Shown here: piece after piece, positions 38,191 to 61,644 of the stretch | How the letters are laid out: every line of letters starts with the position of its first letter | Numbering within the stretch: the stretch's first letter is position 1 | Source: the human T2T-CHM13v2.0 reference genome, Homo sapiens | DNA length: 64,000 bases | Reading direction: 5' to 3' (one strand) | Assembly (NCBI RefSeq): GCF_009914755.1 | Contig: NC_060939.1 | The notes under the pieces: generated by a model | Databases searched by the model: none | The model's input: the letters and a program-made list of their open reading frames with translations, nothing else | Told to the model about the DNA's origin: nothing | Program-made: the position numbers and the translations under genes

Positions 38191-39279
38191 CATTACCAGA
38201 GGAGGGAGTCTTTGGTGGGCCCCAAAGACTTTGGGAACCTGAATCTATAACAAGCACCCAAGGGCTGAGCTCCCAGTGGGGCTCTTTTGTGTAGATGCAT
38301 TCTGAGGGCTCCTTTCCCAGAGTGTGGGGCTCTCCCAGAAGAGCCAGCTTGGGCCAGGTTCTGGGGTCCACAGACACACTAACCCAGAGCTCCCATTTCT
38401 CTTGAGACCACTTTGTTTTTGTTCCAGCACTCAAGAAGCCCTTCCTTCTCTGGCTGTCAAGTCTGGACTCATCTCTTGTCTTACACACGGACAGTTGTTT
38501 TAAGGAAAAGCCCCTGGTTGGACTTGCAGATTGGGCACAGCCCTGGACGTATACTACAGGTGCTCATCAAGGCTTGCCTCATCTGTTTACCCTCCAGGTC
38601 ATGCCCCTTTCTACCTCTACACCCTGTTGCATTGCGGGCATGGCCTCCGGAAAAGTCAAGCATGGCGAAAGGAAGCGTGGCCCAGAGCTGGCACGCCACA
38701 GGCAAGTGCGTGCATGAGTGAGTGAGTGAATGATTGCTTGGGTGGATGGCCGACAGTGCTCAACTTCAGAAGGAGATGAAAAAATAAGACACTATCCCCA
38801 ACAGGGTTTGGCAAAAGGCGTTTCTGGCCAACTCAAGCCTGGGATCTATCACATCCCAAATCAATTTTCAGACTTAGAACAAAAATGCATATCTATCCCC
38901 CTCCCGTTCCCTCTGCCTCCCCTCCCAAAAGAACGCGTCTGCGGGGACAGATGGCCCTGTGTCAGCGTCCCTGTGTGATATTGATGTGAACAGCGAGGGA
39001 AGGCGACGTGTCTCATGGCTGTAAAAATAGACGTGCATTAGGAATGCATGAAGTCAGACTCCTCCTCCGGCCACACCAGGCGTGCTATTCTAAATCCAGC
39101 GCTCATGGGCTTGGTATCCAACCACCCGGCAAGGCAAAGCAGTGGTCTGGAACTTGACATTTAAAGGGTTTGAAAGAAATAGAAAGAGGCACCGAGATTT
39201 CTTTTTTTAAGTCAGTCTGGCTATTTCTGAATGGGGCATGCCAATGAAGCTGGAGACCAAATCCACTGCATTTTTGAAC

Positions 39280-51199: not shown

Positions 51200-51950
51200 G
51201 TCCCAGTTGGGCTTATGGGGAATGAAATCAGTCCCAAGCCCCGATCTCTCTGAAAAGTTGTTATTAAATTCTGTGCCTGGCCCTGACCTGGATTTAAAGA
51301 TTTGCAAGAAGACAAATTCCAAACAGATGCCCATTAGGGCCGTGACAGCCGCAGCTTAAAGATAACATTTACATTCTGCCGGGGTTTGTATCTCTCTGTT
51401 CCCCACTCGGCCCCTCTCTTTCCTCCGGTGGGATCAATACCTCGGTTGAGGTTACGTGGAGGTGGCCACATTCTTTTAAGCTGTTTGCTCAGTGCTTGGT
51501 TTGCTCTGCTAACACGCTGGGCACTTCTTCCAACAGCCCTGTTTGCCCAGCATTAGGGCTGTTTGTTGAAACACCTAGCCCAATCCGAGGGGGCTCAGCT
51601 TTCTAAACAGTTGGTCCCCGAATCTGTCAATCAATAACACCAATTGGGTTCCTGATACGAACAGCAAGTGTGGCCAAGTCCAATATTTGCCCAAACACTG
51701 CCTCCTCCCCCTGCACCTGACTGTCCCCCAGCTTGACTAAAAGGACGATCACCAGGCGCATGGGCTGCTGGGAAGATACAATGTTGGCAAACAGGGAGCT
51801 GGTTCCAGGAAAGAAGGGCACATGAGCAAACATGATGGCCCCTTTATGAGAGGTAATTTACTGAAATGCACAGCGATTACCTGCTCACCCAGCCCTGATG
51901 TAATTAAAAATGGCAGGCTAGGGGCTCTGTTTCCCCCGGCTCTGGCAGAG
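51200..51950 (+). promoter_or_regulatory. Candidate DRAIC promoter / regulatory block
   Basis: Repeat-free; exact PBX-MEIS/PREP decamer CTGTCAATCA at 51624-51633 next to CCAAT (~51640); TAATTA and TTTATG homeodomain sites. Confidence 0.5.
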
Positions 51951-52036
51951 AAACCTGGGTTTCGACTTGTGAAGCTTGAGGTTGGATGTGGGAATTGGCT
52001 TGGAGTCATAGGCGATGAGAGGGACATTAGGATATT

Positions 52037-55265
<3,229 letters not shown>

Positions 55266-55278
<13 letters not shown>

Positions 55279-55599
55279 CTTGCAGTGTCTTGCAGTATTG
55301 TGAAACCAGCAACTTGTTCACAATTCTTCTGAATTTCTTGGGAAATTTGAAGTGGAGTACCTGTACCAACATGAAATGACACGAATTTAAGTGACGCTCA
55401 ACAACGAAAAGCAAAAAGAACCAAAGAGGAAGCAACTGAAACAACATCTGGATGTATTTAAAAATATACAATGCCTCCAAAATCAGGTGTCATTAATGAA
55501 AATTCTGAAGAAATGCCACCGGACATAGCCAACGCACCTACGCTGTTGTTATTCATTTCCTGCTTTTCACAGAAAACAATTTTGTTGCATGGAAGATCG
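55266..55599 (+). ncRNA. DRAIC: DRAIC exon 4 (alternative internal acceptor at 55572/55573)
   Basis: Acceptor cgttgtcctgtag|; donor TCG|GTGAGT; second strong acceptor ttcatttcctgcttttcacag|. Confidence 0.7.
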
Positions 55600-55974
55600 G
55601 TGAGTTAAAAAAAGACCTGCCCTGGGTGTCAAGCACAGTAGTTACACCGCTGGTTCTGCTCCCTCTGCTTGGGATACATGGGCAGGGTGCCCTGGTGGTA
55701 GGGCCTTGGTCACCAGCAAAGTCAGTTCCCATGGGATCCTCTTTCTGAGCTGATGCCCACTCCCCTGAAGAAGGGGCTTCTATTCAGGCCTCTTGTTGCA
55801 AGGAGCAGAAACCCACTTAGGCTGGCTCAAGTCCGCTGTGTTCCGCTGTTCAGCATCCTGTTTCACAGATGTGTCCCAGCCTCTCTTGGGGTATGACACG
55901 AGGCTGGCAGGGGAGACCCAGGGAATGTCACCAGTCCTTGGGGTTGCCTCAGCTCAAAACAGTCCTTCCTTTTA

Positions 55975-55977
<3 letters not shown>

Positions 55978-56005
<28 letters not shown>

Positions 56006-56285
56006 GAGATTGGGTCTTGCTCTGTTGCTCAGGCTGGAGTGCAGTGATGTGATTTCGGCTCACTGCAGCCTCCACCTCCTAGGCTCAAGCAATCCTCCCA
56101 CCTCAGACTCCTGAGTAGCTGGGACTACAGGCACGTGCCACCATGCCTAAGTTTTAAATTTTTTTTGTAGAGACAGGATTTCGCCATGTTGCCTAGGCTG
56201 GTCTCAAACTCCTGAGCTCAAGTGATCCACCTGACTCAGTCTCCCAAGGTGCTGGGATTATGGGCGTGAGCCACCCTGCCCGGCC
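55978..56285 (-). mobile_element. AluJ
   Basis: Antisense Alu with long T tail. Confidence 0.88.
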
Positions 56286-56665
56286 TCCTTCCTTCCACTT
56301 TTAGGTAGCTGTGTTCAGAGTGCTTCATCCAGCAGAGGCAAACAGGTACAAAATTTCTTCCAAGGCCCTGTGGGAAATTTTTATTAATTCAGTTGACAAA
56401 TATGTGTTAAGTGCCTTCTTTAAGGACAGACAATGTCAGACCTGACTCAGAGGCTGTCTTCCTTGGGGAGCTATGGCAAACATGAGCATGACCAGAATTC
56501 AAGGAAGGGCAGGACGGGGGCTCTAAGAGAGAGGGAGGTGAGTTGTTATGGGCATGTGAAGAAGGGTGAGAGAACTTCGCCCCAGGGGTCTCCAGGAAGG
56601 GCTGGGGGCCTTTGTAGAAACTGAGATGTGCCAGGAGAGAACATCTTCTAAAGAATGGCATGCTT

Positions 56666-59912: not shown

Positions 59913-60860
<948 letters not shown>

Positions 60861-61119
60861 CCTCCAAGGCCCCACTTTTTCATCAACACTCCTTGGACGC
60901 AGCAGAAGTATGAACATAATATGGTCCTGAATGAGGCTGAGTCTTTGGGCGCAGAAGACCCGGGTTAATAAAAATAGGAAGGTAAGAAAAGAAAAGAAAA
61001 ATCAAGACACATCATAGGACTAAATTCCTATTATTTATCCACTCAGGATTGACCACCCCTTTGGGCCAGATAGTTGTACCCCCATGTACCAGGTGGGCAC
61101 ATGAAGACACAAGAAGTGC

Positions 61120-61644
61120 TGTGATGGTTCATTTTGCACGTCACCTTGCGTGGAGTATGCCAACTCATTGTTTGGTCAAACACTAGTCTGGACATGGTGG
61201 TAAAGGTATTTTTTAGATGAGATTAACGCTTAAATCAGTAAAGCAGGTTACCCACCATACTACGGGTGGGCCCTGTCCAATCAGTTGAAGGCATTAAGAA
61301 CAAAGATTGAGGTTTCCTAAAGAAGATGGAATTCTCCTTGAGACTACAACATAGAAACCCTATCTGAGTTTCCAGCCTGTTGCCCTGTGGAATTCAAACT
61401 CAGGACTCCGGTCTATGGCATTAACCCTCACTTAACTTTTCAGCCTGCCAGCCTGCCCTATGGATTTCGGACTTGCCAGCCACACAATTCCTTAAAATAA
61501 ATCTCTCCGTCTCTGTCTGTTTCTCTCTGTCTATATACACACCTGCATGCATATATACATATATATATGTATGCATCTATATATTTATATCTAATCTCGT
61601 ATTGCTTATTGGTTCTGTTTCTCTGTAGAACTCTGCCTAATACA
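61120..61644 (+). mobile_element. MLT2C-like ERVL solo LTR
   Basis: TGTGATGGTT start, ggttctgtttctctgtagaac...taataca end. Confidence 0.85.
61496..61501 (+). terminator. Polyadenylation signal AATAAA donated by MLT2 LTR
   Basis: cttaaAATAAAtctctc followed by a CT/GT-rich tract. Confidence 0.65.

What the first reader, a model, noticed from the sequence alone, without database searches (positions are those of the whole stretch)
55266..55599. Exon-4 acceptor switch: hairpin RNA versus NMD-escaping ~192-aa coding isoform
Seen: a second, stronger-looking acceptor (ttcatttcctgcttttcacag|, 55572/55573) shares the 55599 donor and gives a 27-nt frame-preserving micro-exon (reads RKQFCCMEDR with junction codons). 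Using it deletes both the TAA at 55276 and the 55319-55354 hairpin. The ORF then runs into the last exon: 192 aa with acceptor 60817, or 193 aa ending ...AEDPG with 60869. Inference: one splice choice could toggle the locus between an RNA-acting form and a stable, translatable form. This might bear on DRAIC's reported opposite roles in different cancers.
Basis: partly seen in the sequence, partly recalled or inferred. Interest (0 to 1): 0.8.

Follow-up and report, generated by a model that had tools for sequence, protein, structure and literature searches.

The report
DRAIC exon 4: candidate third acceptor
The sequence facts are right, but the splice switch that controls DRAIC's functional hairpin is already published at a different pair of acceptor sites. 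The extra acceptor and its "coding isoform" remain an untested idea, resting on an orphan reading frame that shows no sign of being a real protein.

Summary
All coordinates and reading-frame arithmetic hold. AG|55573 sits behind the best pyrimidine tract in the gene. It shares the 55599 donor, gives a 27-nt in-frame piece, and yields 192- or 193-aa ORFs.

- **Published switch.** The exon-4 acceptor switch in print is 55266 versus 55296 (exon 4a, 30 nt).
- **Published hairpin.** It is 55270-55287 plus 55306-55323, mapped from the paper's own oligos (Hao 2025, PMC12205651). It is not 55319-55354, which folds no better than shuffles (z -1.24).
- **ORF already noted.** A DRAIC ORF with weak Ribo-seq signal is already in print (PMC13399664).
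- **ORF is long but orphan.** It is longer than chance (7 of 2000 shuffles for RefSeq). It has no Pfam family, homologue or paralogue, and no confident fold.
- **Start context.** Nine ATGs precede its start in RefSeq exon 1.
- **No exon-5 tail.** No database protein carries it.
- **Untestable here.** Use of 55573 cannot be checked with these tools.

New here: exon 4, including both hairpin strands, is repeat-derived. The 55573 pyrimidine tract is missing from the two other copies that reach that point.

Verdict: a plausible but unverified extra acceptor in a known system. A coding toggle is unlikely (about 5%).

The parts
53662..53876 (+). DRAIC exon 3. Its donor is weak (GAG|GTACTG). The exon is fully open in the ORF frame.
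   Evidence: annotation table supplied with the finding.
55132..55544 (+). Old interspersed-repeat fragment (family not named). It supplies the intron end, both documented acceptors, both hairpin strands and most of exon 4.
   Evidence: Own-genome DNA searches: 3 other copies and 22 other matches at 66-90% identity. Alignment A1.
55266..55295 (+). Exon 4a, the published 30-nt 5' extension. Its acceptor is tgtcctgtag|G.
   Evidence: The probe 'Exon 3-4a-4' from Table S2 of PMC12205651 was mapped by script.
55296..55599 (+). RefSeq exon 4, the 'exon 3-4' form.
   Evidence: Annotation table; the probe 'Exon 3-4' was mapped.
55270..55287 (+). Strand A of the published IKK-alpha-binding hairpin. 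It contains the TAA at 55276-55278.
   Evidence: The A+B RNA sequence in Table S1 was mapped. The strand pairs with B in the MFE fold.
55306..55323 (+). Strand B of the published hairpin.
55326..55352 (+). It contains the RefSeq-isoform stop TGA at 55330-55332.
   Evidence: -6.6 kcal/mol, z -1.24. Stop position.
55544..55572 (+). Pyrimidine tract, TGC at 55561, branch-point-like TTCAT (A at 55555) and the CAG of the candidate acceptor. About 20 nt of the tract are absent from the 2 other repeat copies that reach this point.
55573..55599 (+). Candidate 27-nt in-frame micro-exon, followed by the donor TCG|GTGAGT.
   Evidence: Its use was not testable here.
51822..52040 (+). 72-codon upstream ORF from the first ATG of RefSeq exon 1. 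Its TGA overlaps the main ATG (ATGA) and lies 49 nt before the exon 1-2 junction.
52037..52039 (+). ATG of the long ORF, the tenth ATG of the RefSeq transcript.
60817..60913 (+). Start of the last exon, carrying the ORF tail and the TGA (60911-60913) of the 192-aa and 183-aa forms.
   Evidence: One search found no database protein with this tail.
60869..60968 (+).
   Evidence: Unverified.
38598..38701 (+). Upstream exon not listed in the supplied RefSeq table. It has an ATG at 38601 and a GC donor (CAG|GCAAGT), and joins exon 2 in the ORF frame.
   Evidence: Database protein P0001 (171 aa) was mapped by tblastn.

Best explanation
DRAIC exon 4 is an exonised fragment of an old interspersed repeat that offers several competing 3' splice sites to one strong donor (55599|GTGAGT).

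The documented switch is 55266 versus 55296. It decides whether strand A of the IKK-alpha-binding A+B hairpin is in the RNA.

AG|55573 is a third site that looks competent by sequence, but its use is unverified. If used, it would cut out the whole published functional region (their nt 705-950, window 55270-55515). That would give an RNA-level loss-of-function isoform, much like exon-4 skipping.

The long ORF that then reaches the last exon is most likely an unconstrained, lineage-restricted open frame with little or no productive translation. Any consequence of the splice choice would therefore be at the RNA level, not a switch to a protein-coding mode.

Shown: the positions, the acceptor features, the repeat origin, the ORF statistics and the lack of relatives. 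Inferred: that 55573 is at most a minor site, and that the ORF is not a functional protein.
For: - **Published event.** The probes and the A+B RNA from the paper's supplement map exactly to 55266-55295, 55270-55287 and 55306-55323. Sections 4 and 12 describe only the 4a/4 event.
- **Repeat origin.** There are 3 other copies and 22 other matches. In alignment A1, the 4a acceptor and strands A and B are shared with other copies.
- **Acceptor quality.** 14 of 16 pyrimidines; 2 of 712 AG sites in the gene reach this.
- **Upstream ATGs.** Nine ATGs precede the ORF start in RefSeq exon 1. The first opens a 72-codon ORF that ends in exon 1.
- **No Pfam family.** Tested on four exon translations and on P0001.
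- **No relatives.** Among 1.84 billion representatives, only the self cluster P0001 was found, plus two tandem-repeat proteins. Their pairwise alignments are 25-34 aa long with E 0.002-0.03.
- **No paralogue.** The own genome gave only the three self exons.
- **No confident fold.** AlphaFold2 single-sequence mean pLDDT was 29.9, with 0 of 171 residues at 50 or above.
- **No exon-5 tail.** No protein of 71-2000 aa carries it (0 hits among 9 candidates).
Against: - The ORF is longer than chance. RefSeq 163 aa is reached by 7 of 2000 dinucleotide shuffles, and 192 aa by 0 of 2000.
- Exons 2 and 3 are entirely stop-free in one frame: 133 codons, reached by 33 of 5000 shuffles.
- A second, unrelated upstream exon also enters that frame from an ATG (P0001).
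- One paper reports a TransDecoder ORF and a 'weak but consistent' aggregate Ribo-seq signal at the locus (PMC13399664, passages).
- DRAIC is described as mainly cytoplasmic (PMC10700117, passage).
- The 55573 pyrimidine tract looks like a DRAIC-copy-specific gain, which could hint at selection for the site.
- Single-sequence folding and searches of mostly microbial protein libraries are weak tests for a young human protein.
Confidence: 0.6

Rival explanations
1. Use of acceptor 55573 toggles DRAIC from an RNA-acting, NMD-prone form to a stable mRNA that makes a protein of about 192 aa, and this accounts for opposite roles in different cancers.
For: - The frame arithmetic and stop positions are correct.
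- The acceptor is the best-looking in the gene.
- The ORF is longer than 2000 of 2000 shuffles in this isoform.
- A weak Ribo-seq signal is reported in print.
Against: - No evidence of junction use was obtainable.
- The only database protein for this ORF ends at the exon 4a stop (...RNLE), and none has the exon-5 tail.
- Nine upstream ATGs precede the start, and the upstream ORF ends ahead of all junctions.
- The ORF has no relatives, no family and no confident fold.
- A 27-nt exon is small for exon definition (general knowledge, not tested).
- Exon-4 skipping would give the same result.
Confidence: 0.05
2. The ORF is really translated into a young, primate-restricted protein of about 155-171 aa that ends in exon 4a or exon 4, independently of 55573. 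DRAIC would then be bifunctional, and the known 4a/4 choice would also change the C-terminus (RNLE versus a 12-residue tail).
For: - ORF length statistics.
- Two different first exons feed the same frame.
- A printed report of weak Ribo-seq signal.
- Cytoplasmic location.
Against: - There are no homologues at all.
- There is no Pfam family.
- Mean pLDDT is 29.9.
- Nine upstream ATGs in the RefSeq leader.
- Both stops lie more than 260 nt before the last junction, so translation should destabilise the RNA. Yet these are the isoforms the JBC paper describes as predominant in the cell lines it examined.
- An ORF caller will always report the longest frame in an assembled transcript, so P0001 is not evidence of translation.
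Confidence: 0.12
3. AG|55573 is a silent look-alike that the spliceosome never uses. The pyrimidine run is an accident of an indel in a decaying repeat.
For: - About 0.14 such sites are expected by chance in an exon of this length (27 of 4829 AG sites in 64 kb).
- The paper that examined exon 3-4 junctions in cell lines and TCGA lung tumours describes only two junctions.
- No database ORF uses the site.
Against: - The tract, the CAG, a branch-point-like motif at -18 and a consensus donor 27 nt downstream are all present.
- The JBC paper speaks of 76 DRAIC isoforms that I could not inspect.
Confidence: 0.25

Closest known systems
DRAIC exon 4a / exon 4 alternative 3' splice site (Hao et al., J Biol Chem 2025, PMC12205651)
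   Same: Same gene, same exon and same donor. An acceptor choice removes part of the functional hairpin. The authors also propose that isoform choice may explain contradictory reports.
   Different: The published acceptors are 55266 and 55296, 30 nt apart. 55573 does not appear in the parts read: abstract, sections 4 and 12, find passages, and both supplements. The paper makes no link to an ORF or to NMD.
Candidate ORF in DRAIC with weak Ribo-seq signal (Acta Naturae 2026, PMC13399664)
   Same: It notes that DRAIC holds a long predicted ORF and may be translated.
   Different: It is based on TransDecoder and an aggregate browser track on the RefSeq transcript. In the passages read there is no isoform, splice or NMD argument.
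Alternative splicing coupled to NMD, and bifunctional RNAs such as SRA1/SRAP (recalled, not looked up here)
   Same: A splice choice moves the stop codon relative to the last exon junction. One locus would then give both an RNA effector and a protein.
   Different: In the established cases the protein is conserved and its translation has been shown. Here the ORF is an orphan and translation is unproven.
Neuronal SRRM4-type micro-exons (recalled, not looked up here)
   Same: 27 nt, a multiple of three, a strong pyrimidine tract with a UGC close to the acceptor, and a strong donor.
   Different: Those lie in conserved protein-coding genes and are deeply conserved. This one lies in a repeat-derived exon of a lncRNA, and its inclusion is unknown.
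Transposable-element exonisation in lncRNAs (general knowledge)
   Same: The exon, its acceptors and its functional RNA structure all come from an interspersed repeat copy.
   Different: The repeat family could not be named here because no repeat library was available.

Membership tests
Published DRAIC exon 4a/4 switch | Acceptors at the ends of a 30-nt extension that share the exon-4 donor, with probe sequences matching | tested here: met
   The probes map to 53872-53876 + 55266-55300 and to 53857-53876 + 55296-55315.
   The published hairpin is 55270-55287 + 55306-55323. Only the 4a/4 junctions are described.
Functional alternative 3' splice site | AG with pyrimidine tract, YAG, branch-point-like motif and a usable downstream donor | tested here: met
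   14 of 16 pyrimidines, CAG, TTCAT at -18, donor TCG|GTGAGT.
Functional alternative 3' splice site | Junction reads or cDNAs that use the site | not testable with these tools
   No human transcript data are available here. Indirect look: no database ORF carries the exon-5 tail and no shorter forms were found.
Splicing-coupled NMD switch | The stop lies more than 50-55 nt upstream of the last junction in one isoform and in the last exon in the other | tested here: met
   321 and 267 nt upstream, versus TGA at 60911 in the last exon.
Splicing-coupled NMD switch | The ORF in question is the one ribosomes read | tested here: inconclusive
   Nine upstream ATGs precede it. The 72-codon upstream ORF stops 49 nt before junction 1 and ahead of all others. 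An alternative first exon exists whose leader is unknown.
Bifunctional coding/non-coding RNA | An ORF longer than chance | tested here: met
   7 of 2000, 0 of 2000, 33 of 5000 and 21 of 5000 shuffles reach it.
Bifunctional coding/non-coding RNA | The protein has relatives, a family or a confident fold | tested here: not met
Bifunctional coding/non-coding RNA | Translation demonstrated | not testable with these tools
   Only a printed remark of weak aggregate Ribo-seq signal is available.
SRRM4-type micro-exon (definition recalled) | Length of 27 nt or less, a multiple of 3, and a UGC near the acceptor | tested here: met
   27 nt; TGC at 55561, 12 nt before the exon.
SRRM4-type micro-exon (definition recalled) | Conserved and embedded in a protein-coding gene | tested here: not met
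   It lies in a lncRNA, in a repeat-derived exon, and its tract is absent from sister repeat copies. Cross-species conservation is not testable here.
Transposable-element exonisation | The exon and its splice sites align to dispersed copies elsewhere in the genome | tested here: met

The most novel reading that the evidence does not exclude
DRAIC is a bifunctional locus. A repeat-derived exon 4 carries three acceptors, which give three outcomes:
- an RNA with the IKK-alpha-binding hairpin (55266);
- an RNA without it (55296);
- a hairpin-less, EJC-NMD-immune mRNA for a young protein of about 190 aa (55573, or exon skipping).

On this reading, the pyrimidine tract of the third acceptor was gained specifically in the DRAIC copy of the repeat.
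Probability: 0.05. Interest if true: 0.6.

Novelty: new member of a known kind. Interest (0 to 1): 0.27.

Why it matters
DRAIC is studied both as a tumour suppressor and as a pro-oncogenic RNA, and its 36-base hairpin is proposed as a therapeutic lead.

Anyone quantifying 'functional' DRAIC needs the right coordinates.

A third acceptor that deletes the whole active region would, if used, be another class of inactive isoform that the published 40-base probes would not count.

The coding idea, if true, would make DRAIC a splice-controlled bifunctional gene, but present evidence is weak.

The repeat origin of the hairpin suggests that sister copies elsewhere in the genome could carry similar IKK-alpha-binding structures.

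Tried and rejected
- **Papers not held.** Sakurai 2015, Saha 2020 and the GENCODE Ribo-seq ORF catalogue paper were not held. I could not check the original coding-potential tests or whether a DRAIC ORF is catalogued.
- **Literature searches that gave nothing on the question:**
  - DRAIC with NMD or UPF1: 1 of the 12 listed papers holds DRAIC, and it is a glioma review. The listing cannot exclude others.
  - DRAIC-201 to DRAIC-206: 0 papers.
  - DRAIC plus microprotein: 4 papers, none beyond those already read.
  - DRAIC plus polysome: 9 papers. I checked only the JBC paper, where the word names a lysis buffer.
  - DRAIC plus ortholog: swamped by author names.
  - The six-term search was mostly off-topic.
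  - DRAIC plus PCAT29 plus coding potential: listing only.
  - The 2022 DRAIC review has no occurrence of isoform, exon, splic-, conserved or coding potential.
  - The 2018 breast-cancer paper and the 2023 in-situ paper say nothing on isoforms.
- **Apparent homologues rejected.** The hits P0002 and P0003 (E about 1e-5) are not homologues. They are tandem-repeat proteins whose many short matches add up.
- **Repeat family not named.** Twelve stop-to-stop frames of the chr2 copy's surroundings gave no Pfam family above noise.
- **No further copies across the 55573 tract.** The search for them was swamped by an Alu next to the chr2 copy.
- **No trained splice-site model.** None was available, so acceptor strength is a crude pyrimidine count.
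- **No cross-species comparison.** No primate or mammalian genomes and no human RNA-seq, Ribo-seq or proteome data were reachable.

Full report
**Observation**

- AG dinucleotides precede 55266, 55296 and 55573.
- All three sites share the donor after 55599 (TCG|GTGAGT).
- The piece 55573-55599 is 27 nt.

Building the spliced forms from the window gives one long ORF that starts at ATG 52037 in exon 1 and runs through exons 2 and 3. Its length depends on the isoform:

| Isoform | ORF length | Stop |
|---|---|---|
| Exon 4a included | 155 aa | TAA 55276 |
| RefSeq exon 4 | 163 aa | TGA 55330 |
| Micro-exon + acceptor 60817 | 192 aa | TGA 60911 |
| Micro-exon + acceptor 60869 | 193 aa, ending AEDPG | TAA 60966 |
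| Exon 4 skipped | 183 or 184 aa | in the last exon |

Stop positions and distances were re-checked. The arithmetic is right, and the micro-exon is not needed to move the stop into the last exon.

**Is the acceptor more than chance?**

No trained splice model was available, so I used a transparent count.
- 55573 has 14 of 16 pyrimidines at -20..-5, a CAG, and no AG in -20..-3.
- The annotated or published acceptors have 10 to 12 of 16.
- Only 2 of 712 AG sites in the gene, and 27 of 4829 on the + strand of the window, do as well.
- That rate predicts about 0.14 such sites in a 334-nt exon. The site is unusual but not significant.
- A YTNAY motif puts a possible branch point 18 nt upstream, and a TGC lies in the tract.

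The site is competent on sequence grounds. Whether it is used could not be tested, because no human transcript data are reachable with these tools.

**What is already known**

Hao et al. (J Biol Chem 2025, PMC12205651) report that an alternative acceptor adds a 30-nt 5' extension, exon 4a, to exon 4. They also report that exon 4a carries one strand of a 36-base A+B hairpin. That hairpin binds the IKK-alpha coiled coil and is necessary and sufficient for NF-kB inhibition. They suggest that isoform choice may explain contradictory reports on a lncRNA. I read the abstract and outline, passages, sections 4 and 12 and both supplements.

Mapping their oligos by script gives:
- exon 4a = 55266-55295;
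- strand A = 55270-55287;
- strand B = 55306-55323.

Their '705-950' numbering includes exon 4a (701 = 55266). Their primer names '800-905' and '960-1105' fit the RefSeq numbering without it.

If '705-758' is read on the RefSeq transcript, one lands 30 nt too far 3', at 55300-55353. I infer this as a possible cause of the misplacement.

The published region folds as A paired with B at -12.6 kcal/mol, z -0.90.

Use of 55573 would still delete the published hairpin, and indeed the whole 705-950 active fragment (55270-55515).

**The ORF**

It is longer than chance.
- Of 2000 dinucleotide shuffles, 7 reach 163 aa for RefSeq and 0 reach 192 aa for the micro-exon form.
- Exons 2+3 are stop-free throughout in one frame: 133 codons, reached by 33 of 5000 shuffles.
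- Exons 1-3 give 153 open codons, reached by 21 of 5000 shuffles.

With tens of thousands of lncRNA transcripts, such cases are expected by chance, so this is suggestive only.

The evidence against a working protein is as follows.
- The start is the tenth ATG of RefSeq exon 1. The first ATG opens a 72-codon ORF whose TGA overlaps the main ATG and lies 49 nt before the first junction.
- Pfam finds nothing for four exon translations or for P0001.
- A scan of 1.84 billion representatives with the exon 3 translation returns only P0001 and two tandem-repeat proteins. Their pairwise matches are 25-34 residues long at E 0.002-0.03.
- The own genome has no paralogue.
- A single-sequence AlphaFold2 model has mean pLDDT 29.9, with 0 of 171 residues at 50 or above. 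This is a weak test.

A 2026 paper already notes a TransDecoder ORF in DRAIC and a 'weak but consistent' aggregate Ribo-seq signal (PMC13399664, passages). DRAIC is described as mainly cytoplasmic (PMC10700117, passage).

**An indirect look at isoforms**

The word-indexed protein search with the exon 2 translation found one cluster, P0001: 171 aa, 100% identical, 8 members on 4 contigs. It consists of an upstream exon at 38598-38701, then exons 2 and 3, then the exon 4a stop. The upstream exon has an ATG at 38601 and a GC donor, CAG|GCAAGT.

This shows that a transcript with another first exon exists and that it includes exon 4a. It is not evidence of translation.
- A query with the exon-5 tail found no protein of 71-2000 aa: 0 hits among 9 candidates. 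That query was lengthened by 9 in-frame intronic codons to reach the tool's minimum.
- The search for shorter forms found nothing.

Both are weak negatives.

**NMD logic**

Under the 50-55-nt rule (general knowledge), the stops at 55276 and 55330 lie 321 and 267 nt before the last junction. They would mark the RNA for decay if that ORF is read. The 192-aa stop would not.

Ribosomes that start at the upstream ATGs terminate in exon 1, ahead of all junctions, in every isoform. 'NMD-escaping' is therefore conditional on leaky scanning or reinitiation past nine ATGs, or on another transcription start.

**New observations**

Exon 4 is repeat-derived.
- The own-genome search found 3 other copies.
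- With the chr2 copy as query, it found 22 other matches at 66-90% identity. The DRAIC copy spans about 55132-55544.
- In alignment A1 (4 sequences), the 4a acceptor and both hairpin strands are shared with other copies.
- The roughly 20-nt pyrimidine run just before the CAG of 55573 is missing from the only 2 other copies that extend that far. The ACAG and the following bases are shared with the chr2 copy.
- With two comparators, the direction of this change (gain here versus loss there) is an inference.
- The family could not be named, and a search for more spanning copies was swamped by an Alu.

The 3' part of exon 5 (61114-61519) is a high-copy repeat. The ORF tail is unique sequence. Exons 2-3 are unique apart from about 70 nt at 53743-53816.

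**Verdict**

The thing that is really there is a repeat-derived exon with competing acceptors. Its known switch (55266 versus 55296) already explains hairpin presence or absence. 55573 is a good-looking but unverified third acceptor, and its use would give another hairpin-less RNA.

I rate the coding toggle at about 5%. I rate a translated young protein ending in exon 4 or 4a at about 12%, and a completely silent site at about 25%.

Searches for prior print on a DRAIC link to NMD, to named isoforms or to a microprotein found nothing beyond the two papers above. The 2015 and 2020 primary papers and the Ribo-seq ORF catalogue were not held.

Noticed in passing
38598-38701 (+): An exon 13 kb upstream of the RefSeq DRAIC start, with an ATG at 38601 and a GC-AG donor (CAG|GCAAGT). 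It splices in frame to exon 2 and gives the 171-aa database protein P0001. It is not listed in the supplied RefSeq table.
   Followed up: partly
55132-55544 (+); L004, L005, L006, L007-L026: DRAIC exon 4 is an old interspersed-repeat copy (at least 22 other matches, 66-90% identity). This includes the 4a acceptor and both strands of the published IKK-alpha-binding hairpin. Sister copies might form similar hairpins. The family was not named.
   Followed up: partly
55544-55567 (+): The roughly 20-nt pyrimidine run that makes 55573 a strong acceptor is absent from the two other repeat copies that reach this point (chr2 L004, chr8 L006). The ACAG behind it is shared with the chr2 copy.
   Followed up: partly
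52037-52040 (+): The TGA of the 72-codon upstream ORF overlaps the ATG of the long ORF (ATGA). This arrangement could couple termination to reinitiation. It may be chance.
   Followed up: no
61114-61519 (+): The 3' part of the last exon is a high-copy repeat (1438 first-look candidates in the own genome).
   Followed up: partly
53743-53816 (+), in exon 3: A stretch of about 70 nt inside the ORF matches six other loci at 78-89% identity. It is a short dispersed element of unknown family.
   Followed up: no
55270-55515 (+): The JBC 2025 paper mixes two numbering schemes. '705-950' and the A+B positions count exon 4a, while the primer names '800-905' and '960-1105' fit the RefSeq transcript without it. 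That is a 30-nt trap for anyone mapping the hairpin.
   Followed up: yes
55031-56367 (-): According to the supplied annotation table, the terminal exon of the predicted antisense lncRNA LOC124903517 covers all of DRAIC exon 4. A possible sense-antisense effect on splicing was not examined.
   Followed up: no
56305 (+): This is the only other AG site in the gene with an equally good pyrimidine tract (15 of 16, TAG). It lies in intron 4. Its use is unknown.
   Followed up: no
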